Shown: positions 26,164 to 55,281 of the stretch, one piece after another
Layout of the letters: each line of letters opens with the position of its first letter
How positions within the stretch are numbered: the first letter of the stretch is position 1
DNA from: a virus
Taxonomy: Duplodnaviria > Caudoviricetes
Virus record (IMG/VR): IMGVR_UViG_3300020393_000002
Span: 1 to 59,534 of that record
DNA length: 59,534 bases
Strand: one strand, 5' to 3'
Notes under the pieces: model-generated
Seen by the model: the letters and a program-made list of their open reading frames with translations, nothing else
What the model was told of the DNA's origin: nothing
Database searches by the model: none
Translations under genes and position numbers: made by a program

Positions 26164-28025
26164 TGAATATATTACAATTACAAGATGATTTAAAAAACTT
26201 TTCAGAAGAACAGTTAGTTAATGAAATGAGGAGGCCATCAGGAACGGCGCCACAATATCTTGTATTGTCTGAAATGAATAGAAGACAAAGAGTTAAGTCT
26301 GACTACCAAGCCGCACAAGCATCGGACCCGTCAACAGTGGCTGAGGAAGCGGTGGCTAGCGCAGGGGTTCCTGCATCTGGTATAATGGGTATGGCTCAGG
26401 CTATGGCTCCTAAAAGTGAAAGTTCACTTTCAGCTCCTAAACCACCTGCTATGATGATGCGTGAGGGTGGTGTTATAAGGGCGCAACAAGGATTGTCTAT
26501 AGCAGATAGAAATTTAAATCCCGGAAACATGAGATTAACTAATGATCCTTATTTTGGAACAACTGGAATAGCCAGTGGATACGCAACATTTGCTTCTCCT
26601 GAATTTGGATTAAGAGGCATAGCTTTAACAGCTGATAAATATGCCAAAGATCCAAATGTTAAAACATTAAAAGATTTTGTAGAAAAATACTCGCCTGCAG
26701 CAGATAATAATCCAAACAATAAACAATATGCAAAAGTATTAGCGGATAGTTTAGGGGTTGATGTAGATGATGAAATAGATTTTTCTGATGATAATGTTAA
26801 AAGAAATTTAATTCCAGCAATAACTAGATTTGAAGGATATAAAGGCCCAATAGACTCTAATATGGTTGATAGAGCAATAGCTGCATCTAAAGTTAAAGAT
26901 GATGAAAGCAAGGTAAATGAATTATTATCTGGAGTGGATTCTTTGTCTGGTGTAAAAAATAATATGGTTACATTTGATGGAAGACCTATAAAACCTAATC
27001 TTTTGACTCAAATGATGACATCTACAGGGGTGGCGTCAACTCAAGATGATAAAAATCAAGATAAAAGTCTTCTAGAAAAAATATTTACAACAAAAATACC
27101 GGGATCTGAATATATTGACCCAATAGGTCCTTTATATAGATTTGGAAGAGACAAAATGGGTCCTGCTATTTCGGAGTTTTATGATGACTATATCAAAGGT
27201 GCAAGACAAGGTGGTAAAGAAAAAAATATTTTAAGAGCTATAGAGGGTCCTGCAACAAAGAAATATTTAGACGAGCAAGAAAAAATAGAGTTAGGTGCTA
27301 TGTTAGAGAGTGATATAGATTATACTGAGCCTAAGTCATTTCTTGATACAATAAAACAAGCTGCATCTAGCTCAGACAACGAAACGCAGAGACAAAAAGA
27401 TATAAGAGAGGCAAATATTAAATCAGGTGAAATTGATAAACTTCCTGATGCAGGAATAGTTGCCGAAGGTATAACCCCAGAAACAACAAAACCATCAGTG
27501 GAAACAGGCAAAGGGGATCAAAAGAAAGCTCCTACATTAGATGAGCAGTTGGTTGCTATGCAACAAGATCTTGCAAAAAGCAGAGAGCAAGACAAGTATT
27601 TAGCTTTAGCGCAGGCAGGATTAGCTATTATGGCATCAGATAAACCTACACTTGGACAGGCAATAGGAGAAGGTGCTGGTGTAGGATTGCAGGCTTACAG
27701 AGATGCGCAAGAGAGATATCAAGAAGGCGTTGTGGATTTATTAAATGCAAGAGCTAAGTTAGCTAAAAATAAAAATGTTTTTAGTATGGATGATGCCTTA
27801 AATAGAGTTATTGGACTAACAAACTCTATAGCAAAGTTAGAGGAGCAAATAATAGAAGCTCAAGAGTTTCCTACAGAAGAGTCTAAAAAAACAGTAGAGG
27901 CATTAAAGCAAGAGCTTAAACAGACAAGAGCGTTAAGGGATCAGCTTACAAAATCTTACACAGGTATAAATCCAAACTATTTTAGTAAGGCAGAGGTACA
28001 AGCAGCTATTAAGAAGCAGGATTAA
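26163..28025 (+). CDS. ejection protein with lysozyme-like domain
   Basis: NLNPGNMR...F...EFG...YSP..DN...Y...ITRFEG pattern of virion muralytic domains. Confidence 0.65.
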   Translation: MNILQLQDDLKNFSEEQLVNEMRRPSGTAPQYLVLSEMNRRQRVKSDYQAAQASDPSTVAEEAVASAGVPASGIMGMAQAMAPKSESSLSAPKPPAMMMREGGVIRAQQGLSIADRNLNPGNMRLTNDPYFGTTGIASGYATFASPEFGLRGIALTADKYAKDPNVKTLKDFVEKYSPAADNNPNNKQYAKVLADSLGVDVDDEIDFSDDNVKRNLIPAITRFEGYKGPIDSNMVDRAIAASKVKDDESKVNELLSGVDSLSGVKNNMVTFDGRPIKPNLLTQMMTSTGVASTQDDKNQDKSLLEKIFTTKIPGSEYIDPIGPLYRFGRDKMGPAISEFYDDYIKGARQGGKEKNILRAIEGPATKKYLDEQEKIELGAMLESDIDYTEPKSFLDTIKQAASSSDNETQRQKDIREANIKSGEIDKLPDAGIVAEGITPETTKPSVETGKGDQKKAPTLDEQLVAMQQDLAKSREQDKYLALAQAGLAIMASDKPTLGQAIGEGAGVGLQAYRDAQERYQEGVVDLLNARAKLAKNKNVFSMDDALNRVIGLTNSIAKLEEQIIEAQEFPTEESKKTVEALKQELKQTRALRDQLTKSYTGINPNYFSKAEVQAAIKKQD

Positions 28026-28026
28026 G

Positions 28027-31000
28027 ATGGCAACATTTGACGTTAGCAATCCATTAGATGGCAGACTATATACATTTGAGATAGATGGTGACACTCCTAC
28101 AGAGCAAGAATCTCTTGAAATACAACAGTTTTTAGCTTTACGAGGTCAAGAGAATGTTGCAGAGCAAGTCCCTGATGATGGTAATTTATTTACAAAAGGT
28201 GTATCAAGAGGAATAGATCAGCTACAAAGAGCATATGGTGATGCTCTTGTAGGTGTTGGTAAGGGTTTTGGTATAGAGGGTCTTGTAAATTATGGGCAAG
28301 AAGTATCAGAAGAAAATACTAGACAATTAGAAGAACAAGCAAAGGATGCACGAAGATTAGATAGCATCAATGATCTTTCTACATTTGGTGACTATGCAGC
28401 ATCTACATTTGGCGAGCAGTTACCAAATTTAGCCCCATCAGTTATAGGCGGTGTTGTTGGTTCTATTTTTGGACCTGCTGGTACAGTTGGCGGTATTAAA
28501 ATAGGAACGATGATAGGTGCGGGCCTTGCTAATTTACCATACTTTTATGGCACTTTTGTTCCATCTGCCACAGATCCCGTTACAGGAGATGTTAATCAAC
28601 TAAAAGCACTCACATATGCAGCTCCATCTGCCGCCTTGGATACATTAGGTGATTTATTAGTTACTGCAGGATTTGCAGGTAAATTATTGTCAGGTGGAGG
28701 TTTGTTTACTAGGGCTGGAAAAGGCGTAGGTAAAGGTGTTGCAGCAGAGGTCCCGACTGAAATAGGTCAAGAAATATTACAAAGACATGCTGAAGGCAAA
28801 CCTCTTTGGAATCAAGAGGCATTAGACACATATATAGAAGTCGCTGCTGCCGCAGGTCTTGTTGGTGGTACAGTTAGTTCTGTTGGTAATATTGTAGGTG
28901 GAGATAAGGACAAACAGCCTGACAAGATTAGTCAATTAGATAGTGACGATAGAATAATGGCACAACAAGTTCAGACTATGAATACAAATGCTGTTAATTT
29001 TATTAATCAACAAAAAGATATAGAGAGTTTTAAAAGCACAGACGGCAAGTTTGTAACTCTCTCACAACTCCCAGATCATATTCAAGATGAAATAAAAGAT
29101 AAAAGAATACAAGAAATTACATATGCTGATGTCGTTTCTGGCACAACAGATTTCGATTTGGAGACAAATAAGGAGACTCTTACACAAGATGAGCTTGATG
29201 TTGCTATAGATAGAACTAATGATTTAGAAGCTGACACAAAAGATTTAGACTATAACAAAGTAAAAGATGCTGTTAAAAAAGAAGGGCAGTTTACACAGGC
29301 CATAGCTAAGAAGGCATTAAAAACTAAAAGTAAAAAGCCAATACCTCAATCTAAGATAAATGGAATCAGAGATAAGTTATTACAAAACAATATAATAAAG
29401 AAAGATAAAGCTAAGTTAGTTGCTACTTTATCTGAAGAGCAAGATATTAGGATTAAATCAGAGCAACTTAAAGCAAGAGTTAAGTCCATAATGAAAGACA
29501 TGGACAAACTACAAAAAGAAAAGAAAAAGTTAGGTGCTATAGGCGATTTATCTATAGATCAGGTTAATAGACTAGATGAGATTAATGGAGAGATAGATGA
29601 TCTAAGCAAGAAATACAGCGACACATCTAAAGCTGCCACTAATTTAGCAAGTAGATCAGACAGAAAGCTGGGTAAAAATGTAATTCGTCTTGGTCAAATA
29701 ATACCACCACTAGAGGCAAAAAATGCATTTGATAACGCAAATTTTAAAACAGATGAGTATAAAGCAAAACAAAATGCAGTACAAAAATCATTGAAGGCAT
29801 CTCTAGCTGCTATTGGATTAGGTAATATTAAGTTAGATTTTAAACCCATACTTACACCTAGAGGACAGCGGCCAGAAGAAGCAATAGCAGAGGGGACTGT
29901 CACAGAGGGTGTGTACTCTAATAAAACTATAGCACTTGCTATGGAAATATATGACCCAAGCCTTACAGAGACTGAGCTACAGCAAAGATTAGGCTCTGTA
30001 ATGAACCATGAAATAATACATGCTTTGTTTGAGTTAGGCGTATTTACACAGCAAGAGCAAAATATTTTAGTAAATGCAGCTAAAAATAGAAAATATGTAC
30101 AGATTATTAATGGTGAAAAGGTAGAAAGAAAATACACATATCTAGATAGAGCTAATAGAATGTATCAGACTAAGTCTGATGGCTCTAAATACACAGCAGA
30201 AGAGCAGGCAGAAGAGGCTATTGCTGAGTTGTACAGAGACTTTGCTGATGGCAAAATTGTGTTAGGTGGTAAACCTAAGACATTATTTGGTAGAATAATA
30301 AACTTTTTTAAGACATTATTTCAATCACATAAAGAAGCAGGATTTAATAAAGCTGGTGATTTATTTAGAGATATTGGCAGCACAAACTTTCAAAGAAGAG
30401 TATCTGAGGCTGAGAAGAAGAGCGCATCACCAGATGCTTTACAAGACTCAATAGAAAGAGAAAGTAGATTGGTTGGACCAAGCATTATACCTGATAACGT
30501 TCTAGAAACAGCACAGTTTATAAGAGCAAATAAGCAAAACTCTACAGATCAAACAAAAATAATGAACAAGCTATTTAAGAATAGACAGCTTGAAGAAGGT
30601 CAAATGGTCACAGTTAGACCTAATTTAAACGGCTTTGTGCAACTGGATGATGGCAGTATAGGGATGACGCAAACAGTACACCCTGCTAAATCATACGGCA
30701 CTGCGTTGGGATACGATAGCGTTGTTGCTATAAAAGATAGCGAGCTTATGGTGTCACCTCAGAAAAGAGCTGATATATACAAAGGTGTAACAAGAACTGG
30801 CGTTAAGCAAGACAAAGTCCCTATGGCTGGTGGTTATGGTGGAATAACAAATATATCCAGACAAGAGATAGAAGATATTGTTTCTAACCCTGATAACATC
30901 TTGTCTTTTAACCCGGGTAGCGAAGCCAGAGGTATAAATGGAACTCATTTATTTACAGATAAAAATGGATATGCAGTTAAATCTATAAAAGGTACAGCAG

Positions 31001-34000
31001 TTCATCTTGGTAGCAAGGTTTTTGTAAAAGGGAACGTTAACTTCTACACAGAGGATAATGCACCTAAGCCTGTGGATAACTTGCCGTCAGATGTAAAATA
31101 TGTACCTTTTGAGACAGAAGTCTCATTGATAGATAGAAAGAATCAGGAAAAGTTTAGTCAATTACGAGGTGAGATAAGAGCCAATATATCCGCAGCAACT
31201 GATAGCATAACTGGGTTAAGTGAACTGCAAAAGGCAGCAAACAAAGGTGATGAAGATGCTATGGTTGCGCTACAAGAAGTTGCAATAAACTCTGTTGATT
31301 ATTTAACTCAAGCAATACCAAATGTAGAAGTAGAGTCAACTCCAGCCTACGGCTTGTACGGTAGCGATCTAGAGCCTGCCGTAGGATTGAAGATAACATT
31401 TGATGAAGGAAGAAAAGATCTAGCTTTATCTGCTCTTGAAAAATTTGCTCGAAACTTTAATCAAGAACAAATACATGTAAGACAAAGAGTGACTGACAGA
31501 TTTGGAAGATTTAATAATCTAGTTGGTTATCAGTTTGGTGATGGTAGTTACAACACACCTGTGGTTAATTTTAGATTAACAGAGTCAATACCAACAAAAG
31601 AGCTATCAAGTATAATAGATAAAACAGGATTGGCAGGTTTTACTGTCACTGACAAATCATTACAGGCTTATTATTTAGGAGATCCAAATGACAGAACAGC
31701 AATCAGAGACTTCAGAAAATCAGTTAGAGGAGCAAGAAAACTTCTTGGACCAAGAATTTCAAGCCTTGATACAAGAGTTGAAAGACTCTGGGCTTACGGT
31801 TCAGGATACGGGGCCACAAATTCCTATGAACAAATTAGAGGCGACTTTCCACTCCCAGAGACCGATCAAGCAGACAAAACAGCAAATAGAATAGCTAATA
31901 GATTAGCGCAAAGACTAGTAGATCCAACTGTACAGGCTAAGACTCTTACAGACAAACAAAAGAATCTACAGATGGAAATAGCTAAAGACTATGATGCTAT
32001 GGGTATAAATAACTTAGATAACCCAACTGTTAGAAGAGCATATACTGAATTAGCACAAGAGGTTACAGAGCAATACAATGCGATGCCTATAAAGGTAGAG
32101 ATATATCAAGACGAAGGTGAGCCATATACAGGCGCTAGAATGTCAGAGGCTATGAGAAAAGATATACTTGCCAATAACCATCTTTATATTTTTGGAACAG
32201 AAGCTGCTACATTTGGGCCGGAAGGCGTGGTCTATGATAATCACCCATTATTAGAACCAACAAATATAGTAGATATAAACGGAAGACCTATGCTTGTTAA
32301 TGATTTATTACGAGCTGTCCACGATTACTATGCGCATACAATGTCCACTGTTGGCTTTGGGCCATTAGGAGAAGAGGCTGCATGGCGTAATCACATGATT
32401 ATGACTAAGAGTCCCTATGCAAGATGGGCTTTGACATCAGAAACAAGAGGACAAAATAGCTGGGTCAATTTTAACGAAAGCGCTTTAGGTGTAGAGAAGC
32501 TGTCAGATAGGCCGTTTGCAGAGCAAAAGGTTGATTTACTACCTGTTAAATATCTTATTACCAATGACCCTGAGGTTGATGCTAGTCTTGGTGAATTAAC
32601 AGATAGCAATTTTGATGCAGATCCTGAGAAATACTCTATCAAAGGTATAAAGCCTAGAGATTTAACAATATTAGATAGAATGGATGAGAATGGTCAATTT
32701 GAACAAAGGGCTAAAGTTGGTTCTGTAAAAATGACTGAGGCTGTGAAACAACTGCATGCAGAAAGAGGCAATATAACACTTGATATAAATAATGCAGAAG
32801 ATAGAGAACTTGCAGAATTAGCTATGTTTGAAGAGTTAAAAGCTCAGGTAGAAGCAGATGAGTCAGCTATTGGTTGGTATGATGATAAGATCAAACTTGC
32901 TAAAAAGTTATATGCAATATCAATTCCTATAATTAAAACTGATAAGAACGCTGAAGCTGCATTTGAATTTGTGTTAGCTATATCTTCTAACGGCGAGGCA
33001 GTCGTTGCGCAGAGTAATGCATTAAAAACACAAATGGAAAATTGGGAAAGAACTGGTGAGTTATTATTAGAAAATCAAGGCAGTCAAGCATCTGCTATGG
33101 AAAAGTCTTTTTTAACGTATAATATATTAAAAAAAGAAAAAGGCATGACAGACTTGGAGATAAAGAAGTTCTTGCAAGTTGTTAGATCAAAAAAAGAAAT
33201 AGAAAATGATCCACTAATACAATCTTTAACAAGCCTAACTGGTGGTAAAGTTACATTTAAACAAGAGACAGCAGATGAAATGGTGCCAATGTCTTTTATA
33301 TTTGGTAGCAAAATAGGTGCATTTTATCAAAATATAATAGGAAATTATGAATATCTTACTATGGATAGATGGTTTATGCGTTTTGTAAATAGAATATTTG
33401 GCGTGCCATTTAGAACAATAGGAGAAACAACTCTTGTAAAGAATAAACAAGATGCGCTTAGAGAGTTCCAAAAAGCATTAGAGTCAGGCACAGAAGATGA
33501 AATTAGTAGAATTAAAGTTGCAACAGATGAATTAGGCACAGATATAATTAATATATCGAATGTTGGAGAGCTTTCTACTTTAATAAATGGTAGATTTAAC
33601 AAAGATGTTGAAAGAATAAGAAGAAAGAAACTTGGAACAAAAGAATTTATAGACACATATAAAACAGAGTTTTTATCAAGAGCGCAAAGATTAGCTGAAA
33701 ACTTAGAGACAAGACTGCAAGAGACACCAAAGACACCGACTAACAGAAAACAGTTTAGGGTTTTATATAATAGAGTTATTGATAGATATAACAGACAGAC
33801 TAATAGACAAATAACTGTTGCTGACTCACAGGCTGTGTATTGGTACGGTGAAAAAAGATTATTTAAGAGCATCGGGGTAGCCCCGGGACAAGGTAGCGAT
33901 AACGATTATGTAGACGCAGCAATAGCATTTTTAAGAAAGGAAGGCATAGATGACCAAACCATTGGAGAAGCACTCCCCCCAACAGAGCGAGAGCGACTCG

Positions 34001-37000
34001 CTGATAAGCGAGGTGCAGGACAAGGATCTATCGATTCTACTGGACAGGTTGATACAAATATCGGGCATGAAAAAAGAGAGTACACCGAAGAAGAGTTAGT
34101 TGATTACGATCCGGCTAAAGACGTTGATCCTAAAGATTTAGAGTTAATTAAAGAAACAATAAACGATCAAAAGTTTGCCATGATATCAACTGGCAAACAA
34201 AACTCTGCGTATGGTGCAACAGGAGAGCTGGGTAAATATTTATACGGTGTTATAAATCTAGATAATAGAAGTCTTCCTGTGTTTTTTGTAGATGGTAAAC
34301 ATGAAGAAATACCCAGAGGTAATACATTTTTGTATAGTGGATTTGGAAACGATCACATTACAGCAGTAAGACCAACAACTGGTAAAAGCCATGAGCAAGA
34401 GTTATTAGAAACATTTAAATATAAAAATATAAAAGATTTGTTTTATGATAATCTTGCAAAATTATATTACCAGCAGAATAGGGATGACGTTAATAATGGC
34501 GTAGAGATTGTCAACACTACAGCAACAGGTGTTAGGCTAGAGTTTAACAGGACCCCACAAAGAGGGGCAAAGCAAAATAAATTTGTTATGCCTTTAAAAT
34601 TTGTTAAACGAGGAGAAAAGTTAGATGAGACAAGTCCTTCATTTAAGTTTGATTCTTTTGTTATAAGAACAGGTTATCCAGAAGAAAAACTATTTAAACA
34701 AAGTATGTTAAGCACTGCTTCTATGAATCAGCAAGAAACACCTATGAGTGGTGCTATAGAAAAAGGTATATCTAATACTAGAATAAAAATACAATACGAT
34801 AATCTATCTAGAGTTTTAGCAAAAGCTGGACATAAATTTAGTCTTGGTAGAATTGAAGAAGAAAATTTAAGAAAAGCCGCACAAAATTTATTAATTCAAG
34901 TTCAAGACAGATTTCTTCCTATTGGTGCTTTGATGGACAAGCTAAGAGAGAATGGTGCTGAGATTACTGATGCCATGGACACTTATATGCAAGAAGAATT
35001 ATTTCATGGAATAGCAGGTGCAAAAGTAGAAAAAGCACAAAAAGAATTTTTTAAACCAATGATTGAAACAATAGATACCTTAAATGTTAATCAAGACTCA
35101 TTAAATACATTGTCTAGAATATCTAATTTTTATAAAACAGCAATTGATGGCAGATATCCTAGTAGAAAAATGGCACTTGCAGACGCCATCCTTTACGCTG
35201 CGCATGCGAAGGAGAGGAATGATTATTTAAAAAATCCAATCGCATCTGGTATGCATACCAACGAGGCTGATAGAATAAATAAATGGATATTGACATTGCC
35301 TGACTCTGAGAAAACAAAGATAAAAAATATTAAAAACTTTGCAAAATCTATAGTCAAGAACACAAATGAAGAAAGAAAACAAGGTGGCCTTATTCCAGAG
35401 GTGTTTACTGATAAAGAAGGTAATCAGTATGAGAGAATATATGAAAACTATGTTCCACTAAGGGGTGACTTAAACTTTGAAGATGAAGCAGATAGTGACA
35501 GCAAGAGAGAAGAGAGAGCTGAAAACTTTGTAATACAAAATTTATTTGGTGCCACGAAGAGACCGGACCGTAAAGCAAGGGGAAGAATAAGATCAAAAGA
35601 GGGTGAAGCAGAAGATTTCTACGCAGAAAATATAGTTGCTACACTATTTGCACAAAATAATAAATCTATTGCAGATGCTGAAAGAAACAAGGTTGGTTTA
35701 AGTTATTTAAATCTTGTTAGAGGCATAGAAGATGGGACCACAGAAGTTAACGATAACTTAAAGAAAGAAATGCAGCACATAAGTGCGGTTTATTTTAATA
35801 AAGACGACATACCAAAGGATTTAGGCGAAAAAGAACAGTATCTAACTGTTAGAGAAAATGGCAGAAATGTTTACATAACACTTAACGATGCTAGAATAGC
35901 TAGGGCTATGAAAGGATTTATGACTCCTGATAGTGTAGGCGGCTTTACAAGAGCCTTAGGTAAACTGAATAGATATTTATCTAATATTAATACAACATAC
36001 AATCCATCTTTCGTTATACCAAACTTTGCTAGAGACTTAGGAACTGCTGGTGTAAATGTTCAACAGTATGACGAAAAAGGTTTAATGTCTGAAGTGCTTA
36101 AGAGTGCGCTACCTGCGGTGAAAGGCATATCTAAGAATTTAAGAGATGGAGATGTTGATAGCTTTTGGGCAAAAGAGTATACAAAGTTTGTAGAGTCAGG
36201 TGGTAAAAACGCAACCAACCAAATGAATGACCTTCAAGATCAAATGAATAGTATAAATAGTATACTTAGTGATGTGTCTGATAATAGTAAAAAAGGGAAA
36301 TTAGGCTTAGTTAAAAAAGGTTTTGGTAAATTAGGTAAGTTCTTAGATGATTACAATACAGCAGTTGAAAATGGTGTGCGTGTCTCATTATACACAGCGC
36401 TTGTAAAAAGAGGGGTTAGCACGGCTAGGGCTGCACAAGCAGCAAGAAACCTAACAGTCAACTTTGCGAAGGGTGGGGAGCAGAAGCAATTTTTAAATTC
36501 ATGGTATTTATTTTATAACGCATCAATGCAAGGATCAATGGCACTGATAAACGCTGCAGTTAAGTCGAAGCGGGTAAGAAAAGTGTGGGCTGGATTATTT
36601 GTTTATGGAGCTATGCAAGATGCATTTAACTCATTGTTGTCAGGTGATGAAGATGAAGATGGAATTAAAGACTATGATGAACTTCCAAGATATATATTAG
36701 AGCATAATTTTGTATTACCAACATTTGGTTTGGCAGAAGATAAGTTTATTACAATACCATTAGCATATGGTATGAACTTAGCTGTAAATGCAGGAAGAGC
36801 TGTTTCGAGAGCTGCTAGGGGCGAGTATACACCCGGGGAGGCTAGCCGGACCATATTTGGTACTGCATTTGAAAGTTTAAGTCCTTTTGGTGGTTTTGAT
36901 AATTTTTATAACTTGGCAGCTCCTACAGTGCTGGACCCATTTGTCAGTGTGGCTATCAACGAGGACTACAAAGGTGACCCTATATTTAAAGAATCACCTC

Positions 37001-37635
37001 AGTTTGCATCAAGACCTACACCTAATAGTCAGGCATATTGGTCAAGCACAAGTGGCACAGCAGTAACAATAGCTAATTTCTTAAACAGCATATCAGGAGG
37101 AGATGCAGTAGAAAGTGGCTTTATTGATCTTTCACCAGACGTTATGGAGTTTTGGTTTGATTATACAACTGGTGGTGTTGGAAGGTTTGTTCAAAGATCA
37201 CTAGAATCGCCTTTCAGGATATATGACGCTATCAACGAGGACTTACAAGCACCACTAACTAGTGTGATACCTTTTGCAAGAAAGGTAATAGCATCTCCAA
37301 GTGAGAGAGAAGATGTATCAAGTTATTTGGAAAATAGAAAAGCGTTATTCACGATACTAGCACGATACGACTTAGCCAGACGATCTGGTGATGTAGAATT
37401 AACAAGAGAAATATTCAGGGATAATAGAGAGCAGTTAAGTATTGTTCCAAGGCTCAAGGCAATAGACAACGCAAGAAACAGATTACTAAGACAAATAAGA
37501 GAGATAGAAAGAAACCCAAGACTAGATGAGAAAGTTATAAAGAACCTTATAAAGATAAGGAGGGATAGGATTAACGACCTCATGAGGCGTGGGCTTATCC
37601 TGATGAGGTCGGCTGGGTTTAGAGAGGCAAGTTAA
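28027..37635 (+). CDS. giant polyvalent ejection protein (HExxH peptidase, several effector domains, LPD38-like C-terminus)
   Basis: 3202 aa; HEIIH at 30007-30021; C-terminal IPLAYG, NEDYKGDPI, YTTGGVG. Confidence 0.8.
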   Translation: MATFDVSNPLDGRLYTFEIDGDTPTEQESLEIQQFLALRGQENVAEQVPDDGNLFTKGVSRGIDQLQRAYGDALVGVGKGFGIEGLVNYGQEVSEENTRQLEEQAKDARRLDSINDLSTFGDYAASTFGEQLPNLAPSVIGGVVGSIFGPAGTVGGIKIGTMIGAGLANLPYFYGTFVPSATDPVTGDVNQLKALTYAAPSAALDTLGDLLVTAGFAGKLLSGGGLFTRAGKGVGKGVAAEVPTEIGQEILQRHAEGKPLWNQEALDTYIEVAAAAGLVGGTVSSVGNIVGGDKDKQPDKISQLDSDDRIMAQQVQTMNTNAVNFINQQKDIESFKSTDGKFVTLSQLPDHIQDEIKDKRIQEITYADVVSGTTDFDLETNKETLTQDELDVAIDRTNDLEADTKDLDYNKVKDAVKKEGQFTQAIAKKALKTKSKKPIPQSKINGIRDKLLQNNIIKKDKAKLVATLSEEQDIRIKSEQLKARVKSIMKDMDKLQKEKKKLGAIGDLSIDQVNRLDEINGEIDDLSKKYSDTSKAATNLASRSDRKLGKNVIRLGQIIPPLEAKNAFDNANFKTDEYKAKQNAVQKSLKASLAAIGLGNIKLDFKPILTPRGQRPEEAIAEGTVTEGVYSNKTIALAMEIYDPSLTETELQQRLGSVMNHEIIHALFELGVFTQQEQNILVNAAKNRKYVQIINGEKVERKYTYLDRANRMYQTKSDGSKYTAEEQAEEAIAELYRDFADGKIVLGGKPKTLFGRIINFFKTLFQSHKEAGFNKAGDLFRDIGSTNFQRRVSEAEKKSASPDALQDSIERESRLVGPSIIPDNVLETAQFIRANKQNSTDQTKIMNKLFKNRQLEEGQMVTVRPNLNGFVQLDDGSIGMTQTVHPAKSYGTALGYDSVVAIKDSELMVSPQKRADIYKGVTRTGVKQDKVPMAGGYGGITNISRQEIEDIVSNPDNILSFNPGSEARGINGTHLFTDKNGYAVKSIKGTAVHLGSKVFVKGNVNFYTEDNAPKPVDNLPSDVKYVPFETEVSLIDRKNQEKFSQLRGEIRANISAATDSITGLSELQKAANKGDEDAMVALQEVAINSVDYLTQAIPNVEVESTPAYGLYGSDLEPAVGLKITFDEGRKDLALSALEKFARNFNQEQIHVRQRVTDRFGRFNNLVGYQFGDGSYNTPVVNFRLTESIPTKELSSIIDKTGLAGFTVTDKSLQAYYLGDPNDRTAIRDFRKSVRGARKLLGPRISSLDTRVERLWAYGSGYGATNSYEQIRGDFPLPETDQADKTANRIANRLAQRLVDPTVQAKTLTDKQKNLQMEIAKDYDAMGINNLDNPTVRRAYTELAQEVTEQYNAMPIKVEIYQDEGEPYTGARMSEAMRKDILANNHLYIFGTEAATFGPEGVVYDNHPLLEPTNIVDINGRPMLVNDLLRAVHDYYAHTMSTVGFGPLGEEAAWRNHMIMTKSPYARWALTSETRGQNSWVNFNESALGVEKLSDRPFAEQKVDLLPVKYLITNDPEVDASLGELTDSNFDADPEKYSIKGIKPRDLTILDRMDENGQFEQRAKVGSVKMTEAVKQLHAERGNITLDINNAEDRELAELAMFEELKAQVEADESAIGWYDDKIKLAKKLYAISIPIIKTDKNAEAAFEFVLAISSNGEAVVAQSNALKTQMENWERTGELLLENQGSQASAMEKSFLTYNILKKEKGMTDLEIKKFLQVVRSKKEIENDPLIQSLTSLTGGKVTFKQETADEMVPMSFIFGSKIGAFYQNIIGNYEYLTMDRWFMRFVNRIFGVPFRTIGETTLVKNKQDALREFQKALESGTEDEISRIKVATDELGTDIINISNVGELSTLINGRFNKDVERIRRKKLGTKEFIDTYKTEFLSRAQRLAENLETRLQETPKTPTNRKQFRVLYNRVIDRYNRQTNRQITVADSQAVYWYGEKRLFKSIGVAPGQGSDNDYVDAAIAFLRKEGIDDQTIGEALPPTERERLADKRGAGQGSIDSTGQVDTNIGHEKREYTEEELVDYDPAKDVDPKDLELIKETINDQKFAMISTGKQNSAYGATGELGKYLYGVINLDNRSLPVFFVDGKHEEIPRGNTFLYSGFGNDHITAVRPTTGKSHEQELLETFKYKNIKDLFYDNLAKLYYQQNRDDVNNGVEIVNTTATGVRLEFNRTPQRGAKQNKFVMPLKFVKRGEKLDETSPSFKFDSFVIRTGYPEEKLFKQSMLSTASMNQQETPMSGAIEKGISNTRIKIQYDNLSRVLAKAGHKFSLGRIEEENLRKAAQNLLIQVQDRFLPIGALMDKLRENGAEITDAMDTYMQEELFHGIAGAKVEKAQKEFFKPMIETIDTLNVNQDSLNTLSRISNFYKTAIDGRYPSRKMALADAILYAAHAKERNDYLKNPIASGMHTNEADRINKWILTLPDSEKTKIKNIKNFAKSIVKNTNEERKQGGLIPEVFTDKEGNQYERIYENYVPLRGDLNFEDEADSDSKREERAENFVIQNLFGATKRPDRKARGRIRSKEGEAEDFYAENIVATLFAQNNKSIADAERNKVGLSYLNLVRGIEDGTTEVNDNLKKEMQHISAVYFNKDDIPKDLGEKEQYLTVRENGRNVYITLNDARIARAMKGFMTPDSVGGFTRALGKLNRYLSNINTTYNPSFVIPNFARDLGTAGVNVQQYDEKGLMSEVLKSALPAVKGISKNLRDGDVDSFWAKEYTKFVESGGKNATNQMNDLQDQMNSINSILSDVSDNSKKGKLGLVKKGFGKLGKFLDDYNTAVENGVRVSLYTALVKRGVSTARAAQAARNLTVNFAKGGEQKQFLNSWYLFYNASMQGSMALINAAVKSKRVRKVWAGLFVYGAMQDAFNSLLSGDEDEDGIKDYDELPRYILEHNFVLPTFGLAEDKFITIPLAYGMNLAVNAGRAVSRAARGEYTPGEASRTIFGTAFESLSPFGGFDNFYNLAAPTVLDPFVSVAINEDYKGDPIFKESPQFASRPTPNSQAYWSSTSGTAVTIANFLNSISGGDAVESGFIDLSPDVMEFWFDYTTGGVGRFVQRSLESPFRIYDAINEDLQAPLTSVIPFARKVIASPSEREDVSSYLENRKALFTILARYDLARRSGDVELTREIFRDNREQLSIVPRLKAIDNARNRLLRQIREIERNPRLDEKVIKNLIKIRRDRINDLMRRGLILMRSAGFREAS
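31688..31894 (+). CDS. possible overprinted acidic ORF in the +1 frame of the giant gene
   Basis: AGGAG 6 nt before ATG; 68 aa, E/Q-rich. Confidence 0.4.
   Translation: MTEQQSETSENQLEEQENFLDQEFQALIQELKDSGLTVQDTGPQIPMNKLEATFHSQRPIKQTKQQIE
33950..34099 (+). CDS. possible overprinted ORF in the +1 frame of the giant gene
   Basis: AAGGAAGG 5 nt before ATG; 49 aa, MTKPLEKHS...LSILLDRLIQIS. Confidence 0.35.
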   Translation: MTKPLEKHSPQQSESDSLISEVQDKDLSILLDRLIQISGMKKESTPKKS

Positions 37636-51495: not shown

Positions 51496-51522
51496 AATAG
51501 CAACTCCTATTTGTTAAATTAT

Positions 51523-51585
51523 CCTAGGACAAAGAGCAGTAATAACTGCTCAATGTTTCGACCTCTCTAGGTCTCGTCAGCTAGG
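51523..51585 (-). ncRNA. type I hammerhead ribozyme
   Basis: CCUAG CUGACGA GACC-UAGAGA-GGUC GAAA CA...UG UC^CUAGG; full core and three stems. Confidence 0.9.
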
Positions 51586-51850
51586 CTACATCATGCAATG
51601 ATCTTAGCTTTAATTTTAACTCTCTATTGATTTCAAAATGTTTAGCTAAATCTTGAAATCTTTTTGTTGGCTTTCCAAAGCAATCAGGATTGTCATACTT
51701 TCTAACTTTGGTCATGCCATGAACTCCATCTCTTTGATAGAAGATGGACATTACTTTGAGGTTATTATTTTTAATTACTGCAAAGTAATTTACACCATTG
51801 ATTGTCTTTTTAACTACGTTAGTAAATTTAGATTTCATTTCCCAATTCAT
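51581..51850 (-). CDS. small early protein
   Basis: AGGAG RBS; stop codon lies in hammerhead stem I. Confidence 0.7.
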   Translation of the reverse strand: MNWEMKSKFTNVVKKTINGVNYFAVIKNNNLKVMSIFYQRDGVHGMTKVRKYDNPDCFGKPTKRFQDLAKHFEINRELKLKLRSLHDVA

Positions 51851-51861
51851 AATAATTACTC

Positions 51862-52164
51862 CTATTCGCTATCTGTTAATTTAATTAAATGATCTACATC
51901 ATAGTTTGAACCATTTATCCAAATATCATGTAACTCCTGACCGATCATAGAGACTATAACTTTAGTTATTGGATTACATATTTGAGAAACTAAATTGTGA
52001 TCTAATTCATTTACTAAATCCATTGTCTCATAGTTACCAACAAACTTACCACCAAACTCCTTGTCTGTCGGACTATCTACATCAGCAATGTTTCCAAAGT
52101 TATAAGCATCAGATAAAAGTCTAAGTAATTTGATTTCGTCTTTATTTAGTTTTTTGAAATTCAT
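51862..52164 (-). CDS. first early protein
   Basis: GGAG RBS just downstream of the type III hammerhead. Confidence 0.7.
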   Translation of the reverse strand: MNFKKLNKDEIKLLRLLSDAYNFGNIADVDSPTDKEFGGKFVGNYETMDLVNELDHNLVSQICNPITKVIVSMIGQELHDIWINGSNYDVDHLIKLTDSE

Positions 52165-52187
52165 AATAGTAACTCCATAAGTTAATT

Positions 52188-52240
52188 AACTGTTTCATAC
52201 TTTTGTAATCATCAGGCACAACACACATTGCACTACAGCC
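52188..52240 (-). ncRNA. type III hammerhead ribozyme
   Basis: GGCUGUA^GUGCAA-UGUGUG-UUGUGC CUGAUGA U-UAC-AAAA-GUA-U GAAA CAGUU. Confidence 0.85.
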
Positions 52241-52452
52241 TAGGACAAGAGGGCAACCGAATTGCCCTCACTATCGTTATTTGAAAAGCCGTACAGATTT
52301 CTAATATGTCTCAAAAATCTCTGACTATCCGTAAATTCTCTAAATAGCCATGTCCTCAAACCTTGGCTTTTCTTTTACCATGGGGAGAGCCTACTTCCTC
52401 CAAGACCTCGCCCTTTCACGAGAATGGGATTTATTGGCAAACTGAGCCTGAA
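52234..52452 (-). ncRNA. putative structured leader RNA
   Basis: Gap with no ORF in the track and several nested helices, between promoter and ribozyme. Confidence 0.5.
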
Positions 52453-52457
52453 GTAAT

Positions 52458-52486
52458 TTTATAATCTTTTTGGAATAATAAGTCAA
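52458..52486 (-). promoter_or_regulatory. sigma70-like early promoter
   Basis: TTGACT-N17-TATAAA with AT-rich upstream sequence. Confidence 0.75.
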
Positions 52487-53552: not shown

Positions 53553-53768
53553 GTGGAAAATTTGTCAAACATTATTTACTTAGATGACTACAGAAAATTT
53601 ATTCCTGAGGATGAGCCTGAGTTACAGGACCCTATCGTGATAGGCTGGGATGAAGACGATAGTCTTTTCATTGCTTCGTCTGTTGACACAGACAAGTGTT
53701 TGTGGATGATAGACTTAGCTAAAAAGATTATTGAGAGCAGTCCACCAAATATAAAAAACAATGAATGA
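53553..53768 (+). CDS. small acidic protein
   Basis: VIGWD.D..LF..SS...LW..D motif; overlaps the terL start. Confidence 0.55.
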   Translation: MENLSNIIYLDDYRKFIPEDEPELQDPIVIGWDEDDSLFIASSVDTDKCLWMIDLAKKIIESSPPNIKNNE

Positions 53769-55281
53769 TATTGCCAAGATAATTCAAAAGAACATGAGCC
53801 AGATAAGTTCACTGCCTCCTGATGAGAAGATGGAGGTATTGAAACTTCTTGAAGAATACGAGCAAGCAAAACAAAGAGAAGAAGCCAGAGATAGTTTTCT
53901 GCCATTCGTTAAATCACAATGGGCAGCTTTTATCCATGGAAGACATCATGAAATCATGGCAGATGCTTTCGAGAGGGTGGCCCGGGGTGATTTGAAAAGA
54001 TTGATTATTAACATGCCACCCCGTCATACCAAGTCAGAGTTTGCAAGTTATTTATTTCCTGCATGGTTTTTAGGGAGGTACCCCAATAAAAAAATTATCC
54101 AGACTGCACACACAGCCGAGTTATCTGTGGGATTTGGAAGAAAGGTTAGGAATCTTATACAGTCTGAAGATTTTCAAAAAATTTTCGCAGGCGTTACATT
54201 GTCATCTGACTCAAAGGCTGCAGGTAGATGGAACACTAACAAGGGTGGAGAGTATTTTGCTATAGGTGTAGGCGGTGCAGTAACAGGAAAAGGCGCTGAT
54301 GTTCTTGTTATTGATGATCCTCACTCAGAACAAGATGCAACAATAGGTGACTATAACCCTGAGGTTTATGACAAAGTGTACGAATGGTATACATCAGGAC
54401 CAAGACAGAGACTCCAGCCGGGTGGATCTATTATTTTGGTTATGACAAGATGGTCAAAAAGAGATCTAACAGGACAAATATTAAAAAATTACACACAAAG
54501 AGAGGGTTCAGGTGAGTGGGAAGTCATAGAACTACCTGCAATAATGCCCTCAGGTGATGCTTTGTGGCCAGAATTTTGGAAAAAAGAAGAATTAGACAGT
54601 TTAAAATCAGAATTACCTGTATCAAAGTGGAACGCACAGTACCAACAAGACCCCACATCGGAAGAAGGAGCGTTAATTAAGCGTGAATGGTGGAAAGAAT
54701 GGACAAAAAAAGACCTTCCGCCTTGCGATTCGATCATACAGTCATGGGATACAGCGTTTTTAAAGACACAGAGGGCGGATTATAGCGCCTGCACTACATG
54801 GGGCGTGTTCCATGGGCCGGATGACGAGGGTAAAACACGACCAAATCTAATTTTAATTGATGCATTTAAAGAAAAACTTGAGTTTCCTGATTTAAAACGA
54901 GCAGCATACGATAAATATTGGGAATTTGAGCCAGATCAAATGATTATTGAGGCAAAAGCAGCAGGATCGCCCTTGATTTTTGAGCTTAGAGCTATGGGAA
55001 TACCAGTTACGGAGTTTACACCGAGCCGTGGACAGGATAAGATAGCAAGAGTTAACAGTGTGACAGATCTATTTGCAAGTGGGGTTGTTTGGCACCCACC
55101 AACTAGATGGGCAGAAGAAGTTATTGAAGAATGTGCGTCTTTTCCATCAGGGGATCATGACGATTTAGTAGACTCAACAACACAGGCGCTGTTAAGATTT
55201 AGACAGGGTGGTTGGATTAGAACAACTATGGATGATTGGGATGATGAACCTAAATACAGAAGACCTGTGGAGTATTATTGA
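53761..55281 (+). CDS. terL: terminase large subunit
   Basis: MPPRHTKS, VIDDPH, MTRW, YQQ.P, QSWDTA, IEAKAAG, HDDLVD. Confidence 0.95.
   Translation: MNDIAKIIQKNMSQISSLPPDEKMEVLKLLEEYEQAKQREEARDSFLPFVKSQWAAFIHGRHHEIMADAFERVARGDLKRLIINMPPRHTKSEFASYLFPAWFLGRYPNKKIIQTAHTAELSVGFGRKVRNLIQSEDFQKIFAGVTLSSDSKAAGRWNTNKGGEYFAIGVGGAVTGKGADVLVIDDPHSEQDATIGDYNPEVYDKVYEWYTSGPRQRLQPGGSIILVMTRWSKRDLTGQILKNYTQREGSGEWEVIELPAIMPSGDALWPEFWKKEELDSLKSELPVSKWNAQYQQDPTSEEGALIKREWWKEWTKKDLPPCDSIIQSWDTAFLKTQRADYSACTTWGVFHGPDDEGKTRPNLILIDAFKEKLEFPDLKRAAYDKYWEFEPDQMIIEAKAAGSPLIFELRAMGIPVTEFTPSRGQDKIARVNSVTDLFASGVVWHPPTRWAEEVIEECASFPSGDHDDLVDSTTQALLRFRQGGWIRTTMDDWDDEPKYRRPVEYY

What the first reader, a model, noticed from the sequence alone, without database searches (positions are those of the whole stretch)
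52188..52240. Type III hammerhead ribozyme at the head of the early operon
Seen on the minus strand: stem III GGCUGU/ACAGUU, GUA cut after 52234, stem I GUGCAA/UUGUGC with loop UGUGUG, CUGAUGA, short stem II UAC/GUA with loop AAAA and an unusual U-U at its base, then GAAA. Known: loop I/loop II contacts accelerate natural hammerheads. Inference: the phage processes its first transcript with two ribozymes of different topology, a protein-free analogue of T7 RNase III processing.
Basis: partly seen in the sequence, partly recalled or inferred. Interest (0 to 1): 0.85.

Follow-up and report, generated by a model that had tools for sequence, protein, structure and literature searches.

The report
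Hammerhead ribozyme before phage early genes
A small self-cutting RNA of a well-known class (a type III hammerhead) sits just before the first gene of a marine phage's early gene block, and many related copies in other phages show it is real, though this kind of arrangement has been described before.

Summary
The motif is in the sequence exactly as described (minus strand 52240-52188, cut after A52234). It is a genuine, conserved type III hammerhead. A lax descriptor finds 1 hit in the window against 3 hits in 300 shuffles. A pattern that left stems I and III and the inner stem II pairs free retrieved 109 distinct viral elements. Stem I pairs 6/6 in 109 of 109, U16.1 is present in 109 of 109, and position 17 is never G. 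Covariation is strong.

Rfam misses this copy even at E<=10, but it hits a sibling with a G-C closing pair at 41.8 bits. The U10.1-U11.1 mismatch occurs in about half of the viral copies. It is already published as a natural, active variant (PMC3088659, section 8).

The element lies 23 nt before the ATG of the first minus-strand gene. Upstream lie a conserved sigma-70-like promoter and a roughly 217-nt structured leader. A type I hammerhead sits one gene downstream (51523-51585).

In the viral set, 120 of 131 copies end 7-44 nt before a start codon.

Cleavage itself is untested. Verdict: a new member of a known kind, of moderate interest.

The parts
52188..52240 (-). Type III hammerhead ribozyme, whole element. 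Stem III 52240-52235/52193-52188; stem I 52233-52228/52221-52216; loop I UGUGUG 52227-52222; CUGAUGA 52215-52209; stem-loop II 52208-52197; GAA 52196-52194.
   Evidence: Sequence read. R1 covariance model 74.9 bits. Covariation. Selection-free test.
52233..52234 (-). Predicted scissile bond, 3' of A17 (52234). The 5' product ends ...GGCUGUA with a 2',3'-cyclic phosphate. The 3' product starts with 5'-OH G52233.
   Evidence: Position follows from the hammerhead consensus (U16.1 H17). Position 17 is A 54, C 41, U 14, G 0 in 109 pattern-retrieved viral elements. Chemistry is established knowledge and was not tested here.
52197..52208 (-). Stem-loop II: U10.1 and U11.1 mismatch, 3 pairs UAC/GUA, loop AAAA.
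   Evidence: Family counts for 10.1/11.1 are UU 54, GC 47, AA 7, GU 1 of 109. The two free inner pairs form in 109 of 109.
52458..52486 (-). Putative sigma-70-type promoter: TTGACT (52486-52481), 17-nt spacer, TATAAA (52463-52458). Start expected near 52450.
   Evidence: Read by eye. The TTGAC box aligns in 7 of 10 relatives. Not listed by the consensus scan, because the last base of the -10 hexamer is A. Inference.
52241..52450 (-). Structured non-coding leader. With 52240-52234 it gives a roughly 217-nt 5' cleavage fragment.
   Evidence: No ORF of 40 aa or more on this strand. Conserved in 12 sequences; RNAalifold gives 44 pairs, 17 with changes on both sides. Single-sequence fold -61 kcal/mol, z -1.71. 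No Rfam family.
52244..52275 (-). Covarying hairpin that ends 4 nt before stem III of the hammerhead. It would be the 3'-terminal hairpin of the released leader.
   Evidence: GAGGGCAA/UUGCCCUC, GGAGGCAA/UUGCCUCC, GGGAGCAA/UUGCUCCC.
52173..52176 (-). Shine-Dalgarno GGAG of the first gene, 8 nt before the ATG.
   Evidence: Similar GGAG boxes follow most family copies.
51862..52164 (-). First ORF of the minus-strand block (100 aa, no known family). ATG lies 23 nt after the ribozyme's last paired base.
   Evidence: No PHROG match.
51523..51585 (-). Second ribozyme: type I hammerhead between the 89-aa and 97-aa ORFs. Cut predicted after C51528. Its stem I overlaps the TAG stop at 51583-51581.
   Evidence: Sequence. 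Descriptor hit, and the same element in L002, L009, L048, L074, L096, L106 with one compensatory stem I change. Rfam RF00163 29.8 bits, E 1.3e-5, below gathering 34.

Best explanation
The element is a genuine type III hammerhead self-cleaving ribozyme.

It belongs to a widespread fixed-geometry subclass with these features:
- a 6-bp stem I closed by a UGUGUR loop;
- a stem II of 3 pairs plus a closing G-C, U-U or A-A, capped by RAAA;
- an ACUGU/ACAGU stem III.

Proposed course of events:
1. Host RNA polymerase starts near 52450 at a sigma-70-like promoter (inferred).
2. It transcribes a structured leader of about 217 nt, then the ribozyme.
3. The ribozyme folds and cuts between A52234 and G52233 (inferred from the intact core and its conservation).
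4. The leader is released ending in a hairpin and a 2',3'-cyclic phosphate.
5. The early mRNA keeps the folded ribozyme at a 5'-OH end, 23 nt ahead of its start codon.

A type I hammerhead one gene downstream cuts again. The likely benefit is a defined, structured, 5'-OH-capped 5' untranslated region that uncouples each message from upstream RNA and from 5'-end-dependent decay. This would be a natural counterpart of the engineered RiboJ insulator. That benefit is inference.
For: - All core positions are present.
- Chance is unlikely: 1 hit against 3 in 300 shuffles.
- In 18 hand-framed relatives, stem I is 100% paired, with all 6 pairs changed on both sides. 14 of 17 pairs overall show double changes, and 0 of 500 shuffles reach the score.
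- RNAalifold predicts the hammerhead fold on its own.
- 160 model hits at E<=1e-3 in 87 sources. The best 150 were aligned, giving 128 distinct sequences that are 95.3% paired (this alignment is fitted to the model).
- Selection-free test on 109 distinct viral elements, retrieved by a pattern that fixed only loops, core and the 3' strand: stem I 6/6 in 109, and 0 when slid; U16.1 in 109; G17 in 0; stem III 5/5 in 94, 4/5 in 14, 3/5 in 1; inner stem II pairs in 109.
- Rfam RF00008 matches sibling L046:1528-1582 over the full model at 41.8 bits, E 1.8e-7.
- A U10.1-U11.1 mismatch is a published natural variant and the best tolerated mismatch (PMC3088659, section 8).
- Position: 120 of 131 distinct copies end 7-44 nt before an ATG ORF of 45 codons or more, against 757 of 5240 random positions.
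- Precedents: hammerheads flank genes in prophages and cleave in vitro and in E. coli. The HF1/HF2 hammerhead lies 13 nt before the first early gene, with a mapped 5' end within 3 nt of the cut (PMC3088659, section 6 and discussion passages).
Against: - No cleavage data exist. RNA contigs from public runs do not cover 52188-52240.
- Rfam reports nothing for this copy, even at E<=10.
- G10.1, part of the most conserved stem pair, is replaced by U.
- The nearest-neighbour model puts the hammerhead fold 3.5 kcal/mol above the MFE for this copy. The median gap is 2.4 kcal/mol over 127 family members, and only 2 lie within 1 kcal/mol.
- Predicted ribosome-site accessibility is the same before and after cleavage (0.23 against 0.23), so unmasking of the ribosome site is not supported.
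- Only 13 of 37 TerL-related loci with at least 1700 nt upstream carry a strong copy.
- The 4 nearest named phage records carry none.
- In genome contigs the position rule is weaker: 39 of 133.
Confidence: 0.8

Rival explanations
1. The fold is a conserved hammerhead, but the U-U copies such as this one are slow or conditional cutters. Cleavage would then be tuned by Mg2+ or another factor and act as a regulated switch rather than constitutive processing.
For: - G10.1-C11.1 is described as the most conserved stem pair (PMC3088659, section 8; PMC4209133 passage).
- Viral copies are about half U-U (54 of 109), against 18 of 136 in genome contigs.
- U-U goes with A17 (52 of 59) and G-C with C17 (39 of 44), which suggests two tuned states.
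- Perreault et al. discuss slower phage variants that might respond to conditions (discussion passage).
Against: - The same paper reports that U-U supports more activity than any other mismatch.
- U-U and G-C copies share identical loops and geometry and sit side by side in one genome (L040, L046).
- The U-U/A17 link may simply reflect shared descent.
Confidence: 0.12
2. The element is a hammerhead-shaped structure that no longer cuts. It would serve only as a 5'-UTR structure or as a protein-binding site through the conserved UGUGUG loop.
For: - Loop I and loop II are nearly invariant, which could also fit a protein site.
- There is no Rfam hit.
- The thermodynamic fold does not favour the hammerhead.
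Against: Every catalytic position is kept, and position 17 is never G in 109 elements although the retrieval pattern did not constrain it. That constraint is expected only if cutting matters.
Confidence: 0.05
3. The motif is a chance match in an AT-rich intergenic region.
Against: - 3 hits in 300 shuffles.
- Over 100 homologous copies with compensatory changes.
Confidence: 0.01

Closest known systems
Hammerhead ribozyme type III (Rfam RF00008, clan CL00010)
   Same: Three-helix junction open at stem III; CUGANGA, GAAA and U16.1-H17 core; full-length model match to a sibling copy.
   Different: This copy has U10.1-U11.1 and scores below E 10 in Rfam. Even the G-C sibling is below gathering (41.8 against 48.5). 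The loops are UGUGUR and RAAA rather than those of the Rfam consensus shown.
Natural U10.1-U11.1 hammerhead variants and clustered hammerheads flanking prophage genes (Perreault et al. 2011, PMC3088659; sections 6-8 and discussion passages read)
   Same: U-U at the base of stem II; short stem II; several ribozymes of different topology between short phage genes; proposed processing of polycistronic phage RNA.
   Different: Here the setting is an uncultured marine virus whose nearest named relatives are HTVC023P-type pelagiphages at 52-55% TerL identity. The subclass has fixed loops and a tight distance to start codons. I could not see the paper's supplements (Dataset S1, Figures S4-S8), so this subclass may already be in them.
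HHphage of haloviruses HF1/HF2 (PMC3088659, discussion passages)
   Same: A hammerhead a few nucleotides (13) ahead of the start codon of the first gene of an early polycistronic transcript, with a mapped 5' end near the cut.
   Different: HHphage is a high-salt core variant in an archaeal virus. The present element has a canonical core and follows a roughly 217-nt structured leader.
RiboJ-type engineered ribozyme insulators (recalled; only a search listing was seen)
   Same: A type III hammerhead in a bacterial 5' UTR that cuts off upstream RNA and stays on the message ahead of the ribosome site.
   Different: RiboJ is synthetic, derived from a plant satellite RNA ribozyme plus an added hairpin. 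It is a functional analogy only, with no homology claimed, and the predicted ribosome-site exposure did not change here.
T7 RNase III processing of early transcripts (established knowledge, recalled)
   Same: Cutting of a long early phage transcript between genes, leaving structured ends.
   Different: T7 uses a host protein enzyme on double-stranded sites, giving 5'-phosphate ends. A hammerhead needs no protein and gives 5'-OH and cyclic phosphate ends.

Membership tests
Hammerhead ribozyme, type III | Three helices meeting at the core, with the open end at stem III | tested here: met
   for this copy. RNAalifold gives the fold unaided. All three helices carry compensatory changes. Stem I is 6/6 in 109 of 109 elements retrieved without constraining it.
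Hammerhead ribozyme, type III | Core C3 U4 G5 A6 N7 G8 A9, G12 A13 A14, A15.1-U16.1, and H (not G) at 17 | tested here: met
   All present at 52215-52209, 52196-52193 and 52235-52234. U16.1 in 109 of 109 and G17 in 0 of 109 where the pattern left them free.
Hammerhead ribozyme, type III | G10.1-C11.1 closing pair of stem II (typical, not absolute) | tested here: not met
   U52208 and U52197. The family has UU 54, GC 47, AA 7, GU 1 of 109. U-U is a published natural and active exception (PMC3088659, section 8).
Hammerhead ribozyme, type III | Score at or above the Rfam RF00008 gathering threshold | tested here: not met
   No match at gathering or at E<=10. Sibling L046:1528-1582 scores 41.8 bits against a gathering score of 48.5.
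Hammerhead ribozyme, type III | Site-specific self-cleavage giving 2',3'-cyclic phosphate and 5'-OH ends | not testable with these tools
   Public RNA contigs did not cover the site.
Hammerhead ribozyme, type III | Tertiary contact between loop I and loop II (or a pseudoknot) for fast cleavage | tested here: inconclusive
   118 of 128 copies keep a 6-nt loop I and a 4-nt loop II. Loop I positions 1-5 and loop II positions 2-4 are over 90% invariant. No loop-loop covariation was detected, and no Watson-Crick pseudoknot is evident.
Hammerhead ribozyme, type I (second element, 51523-51585) | Core plus helices with the open end at stem I | tested here: met
   Descriptor hit with conserved copies in 6 loci and one compensatory stem I pair. 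RF00163 full-length match at 29.8 bits, E 1.3e-5, below gathering 34.

The most novel reading that the evidence does not exclude
These marine phages would use a dedicated, fixed-geometry hammerhead as genome-wide 'punctuation'. It would sit a set distance ahead of start codons, so that each early message begins with a 5'-OH, ribozyme-capped leader. At the operon head the same cut would mature a conserved, structured non-coding RNA of about 217 nt with a function of its own. The split into U-U/A17 and G-C/C17 forms would reflect two deliberately tuned cleavage speeds.
Probability: 0.3. Interest if true: 0.6.

Novelty: new member of a known kind. Interest (0 to 1): 0.4.

Why it matters
A 2019 review calls the biological roles of self-cleaving ribozymes in bacteria 'largely elusive' (PMC6765202, passages). 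Here a large natural set ties one hammerhead subclass to a precise place. In the viral set the ribozyme ends 7-44 nt before a start codon in 120 of 131 copies.

That makes the processing or insulation idea directly testable with reporters. It also offers compact natural insulator parts, and a ready comparison of U-U and G-C closing pairs in one scaffold. The class, the U-U variant and the phage-operon setting are all in print, so the advance is one of scope and context rather than of kind.

Tried and rejected
- Rfam at gathering score over the whole window, and at E<=10 around the site, gave no hammerhead. I explain this by the U-U pair and unusual loops, since a G-C sibling is found.
- blastn of the region against named phages gave no match. 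An 81-base query gave only one weak Vibrio phage hit at E 0.7.
- The R1 model found nothing in HTVC027P, HTVC023P, 023Pt_psg01 or DSL-LC04. The tool warns that an empty answer shows little.
- Public RNA runs (shares 0.10 and 0.04) laid gave three short contigs. None covers 52188-52240. One contig spans the type I site at 51503-51659 with 8 differences. This is uninformative about cleavage, expression or habitat.
- Single-sequence folding does not recover the hammerhead. My first hand-written structure was out of register (+13 kcal/mol) and is discarded. The alignment-derived value (-6.1 kcal/mol) is used.
- Ribosome-site unmasking by cleavage is rejected for this copy.
- Type II descriptor hits were artefacts overlapping type III copies, or one weak hit inside a gene at 26680-26793.
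- The stem III count was mis-indexed and is replaced.
- No tRNA genes were found.
- Paper searches with no relevant result: hammerhead with pelagiphage (one unrelated essay), with 'candidate phyla radiation' (none) and with Saccharibacteria (none). These cover only the held library.
- Supplements of PMC3088659 were not seen.

Full report
**Observation.** Read on the minus strand, 52240-52188 is GGCUGU-A-GUGCAA-UGUGUG-UUGUGC-CUGAUGA-U-UAC-AAAA-GUA-U-GAA-ACAGUU. A lax type III descriptor finds this one site in the window. In 300 dinucleotide-preserving shuffles of the whole window it finds 3 sites in total, on both strands. On the negative side, Rfam reports no hammerhead at gathering score or at E<=10 in two narrower searches. 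The single-sequence minimum-energy fold is not the hammerhead (z -0.16). By the nearest-neighbour model the hammerhead fold is -6.1 kcal/mol against -9.6 kcal/mol for the MFE.

**Setting.** The window is a complete 59,534-bp virus record with direct terminal repeats. The element lies in the 583-bp gap between two divergent gene blocks.
- To the right, on the plus strand, are a 174-aa ORF, the large terminase (53761-55281) and the portal protein.
- To the left, on the minus strand, is a run of small ORFs without known families (100, 89, 97, 61 and 233 aa), then an ATPase and an HNH-endonuclease-like protein.

The ribozyme's last paired base (52188) is 23 nt from the ATG at 52164, with GGAG at 52176-52173 between them. 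Upstream I read TTGACT-17 nt-TATAAA at 52486-52458. The TTGAC box aligns in 7 of 10 relatives whose flanks otherwise differ. The consensus scan did not list it. The nearest named phages are HTVC027P, HTVC023P and 023Pt_psg01, at 52-55% terminase identity.

**Relatives and covariation.** The terminase has at least 596 relatives in the viral contig collection, and 80 loci were fetched.
- A regular expression and then a descriptor found the same element on the strand opposite the terminase in 16 of these loci, with up to four copies per locus.
- In 18 distinct copies framed without gaps, stem I is paired in 100% of cells and all six pairs show changes on both sides. Stem II pairs 2 and 3 covary. 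14 of 17 pairs show double changes. No shuffle of 500 reaches the covariation score, and sliding the partner collapses pairing to 31-44%.
- These 18 were chosen by a descriptor that demands pairing, so the percentage paired is partly circular. The compensatory changes are not.
- RNAalifold predicts the three hammerhead helices unaided.

**A wider, cleaner test.** The covariance model R1 gave 160 hits at E<=1e-3 in 87 sources. The best 150 were aligned and gave 128 distinct sequences, 95.3% paired. That alignment is fitted to the model. The pattern did not constrain the 5' strands of stems I and III, positions 16.1 and 17, or the inner stem II pairs. I therefore counted those directly in the 109 distinct pattern matches:
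- Stem I forms 6 of 6 pairs in 109 of 109, and in none when slid by 1-3 nt.
- U16.1 is present in 109 of 109.
- Position 17 is A 54, C 41, U 14, G 0.
- Stem III forms 5 of 5 pairs in 94, 4 of 5 in 14 and 3 of 5 in 1.
- Both free stem II pairs form in 109 of 109.

The absence of G at 17 is the signature expected of selection for cleavage, not only for shape.

**The U-U pair.** Position 10.1/11.1 is U-U in 54, G-C in 47, A-A in 7 and G-U in 1 of the 109. Rfam's RF00008 matches the G-C sibling L046:1528-1582 across its whole model (41.8 bits, E 1.8e-7, gathering 48.5). It does not report the U-U and G-U copies 500-900 nt away. That explains the Rfam silence at the window's copy. Perreault et al. 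2011 (PMC3088659, section 8, read in full) already note natural hammerheads whose stem II starts with U10.1-U11.1. They also note that this mismatch supports more activity than any other, and that stem II is often only two pairs long.

**Position rule.** Of 131 distinct copies with flanks, 120 end 7-44 nt before an ATG that opens 45 codons or more. The figure is 757 of 5240 for random positions on the same strands. Most copies have a GGAG-like box in between and follow the previous ORF's stop by 20-40 nt. The window's copy is unusual in following a leader rather than a gene.

**The second ribozyme.** A type I hammerhead lies at 51585-51523 (minus strand), between the 89-aa and 97-aa ORFs. The cut is predicted after C51528, 32 nt before the next ATG. 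RF00163 matches it full-length at 29.8 bits, E 1.3e-5, below gathering 34. Relatives show one compensatory stem I change. The lax type I descriptor gave 95 hits across all loci, some of which are surely false.

**Mechanism.**
- Shown: an intact, conserved hammerhead core and helices; a fixed place before start codons; two topologies in one operon.
- Inferred: transcription from the sigma-70-like promoter near 52450; self-cleavage; release of a leader of about 217 nt that ends in a covarying hairpin (52275-52244).
- Also inferred: a downstream message that begins with 5'-OH and the folded ribozyme. With the type I element, the ribozyme instead stays on the 3' end of the upstream message.
- The proposed benefit is defined ends, protection from end-dependent decay, and independence from upstream RNA. 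This rests on analogy with published proposals (PMC3088659, section 6; PMC6765202, passages) and with engineered insulators (recalled).
- One specific version, exposure of the ribosome site by cleavage, is not supported. Predicted unpaired probability of GGAG is 0.23 in both the full and the cut RNA.

**What speaks against generality.**
- Only 13 of 37 terminase-related loci with at least 1700 nt of upstream sequence hold a strong copy (over 57 bits), and three more hold weak hits.
- The four nearest named phage records show none.
- In genome contigs only 39 of 133 copies obey the 7-44 nt rule, against 385 of 2660 controls.

**Comparison with the known.** The class, the type III topology, the U-U variant and clusters of mixed-type hammerheads between phage genes are all published. 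So is a hammerhead 13 nt ahead of the first early gene of haloviruses HF1/HF2, with a mapped 5' end nearby (PMC3088659). What I did not find in the held library is this subclass in relatives of pelagiphages or in Patescibacteria. The supplements of PMC3088659 could not be read and may contain it. I therefore file the finding as a new member of a known kind.

**Verdict.**
- Confidence that this is a real conserved hammerhead: about 0.95.
- Confidence that it cleaves in vivo: about 0.8-0.85.
- Confidence in the stabilising or insulating role: about 0.5.
- Interest: 0.4.

Noticed in passing
window 52241-52455 (minus strand); homologues in L261, L268, L239, L246, L183, L096, L245, L197, L101, L106, L084: The roughly 215-nt leader between the promoter and the hammerhead is a conserved, structured non-coding RNA with no Rfam match. 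RNAalifold on 12 sequences gives 44 pairs, 17 with changes on both sides. These include a long-range helix (GAAAAGCC/GGCUUUUC) and an internal hairpin that exists in two alternative versions. In L002 (99% terminase identity) the leader is replaced by unrelated sequence, while the promoter and ribozyme are kept.
   Followed up: partly
genome-contig loci L277-L356: The same fixed-geometry type III hammerhead (UGUGUR loop I, RAAA loop II) occurs in at least 120 stretches of bacterial genome assemblies. Most are labelled Patescibacteria (Saccharibacteria, Paceibacterota, Kaiserbacteria and others), including roughly 1-Mb chromosomes. R1 gave 136 hits in 80 loci, with up to 7 in 8 kb (L278). One such cluster lies among small ORFs, a TrmB-like regulator and a PemK/MazF-like ORF. 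I found no paper on this in the held library.
   Followed up: partly
alignment A3 (viral copies): The closing pair of stem II and the cleavage-site base go together: U-U with A17 in 52 of 59, and G-C with C17 in 39 of 44. In genome contigs the link is weaker: U-U with A 7, C 5, U 1. This may be shared descent or functional tuning.
   Followed up: partly
alignment A3 and A5: Two viral copies carry A at 16.1 together with GAAU in place of GAAA, which is the swapped U15.1-A16.1 pair. Perreault et al. report that variant as weakly active. A few genome copies have core changes: CCGAUGA 3, UUGAUGA 1, CUGAUGU 1.
   Followed up: no
loci L085, L089, L090, L098, L100: Type I hammerheads in related viral contigs also carry a U10.1-U11.1 closing mismatch (CUGAUGA-UUAGC...GCUAU-GAAA). 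The U-U variant is therefore not tied to one topology.
   Followed up: no
window 28027-37635 (+): A single 3202-aa ORF in a 59.5-kb phage genome. Not examined.
   Followed up: no
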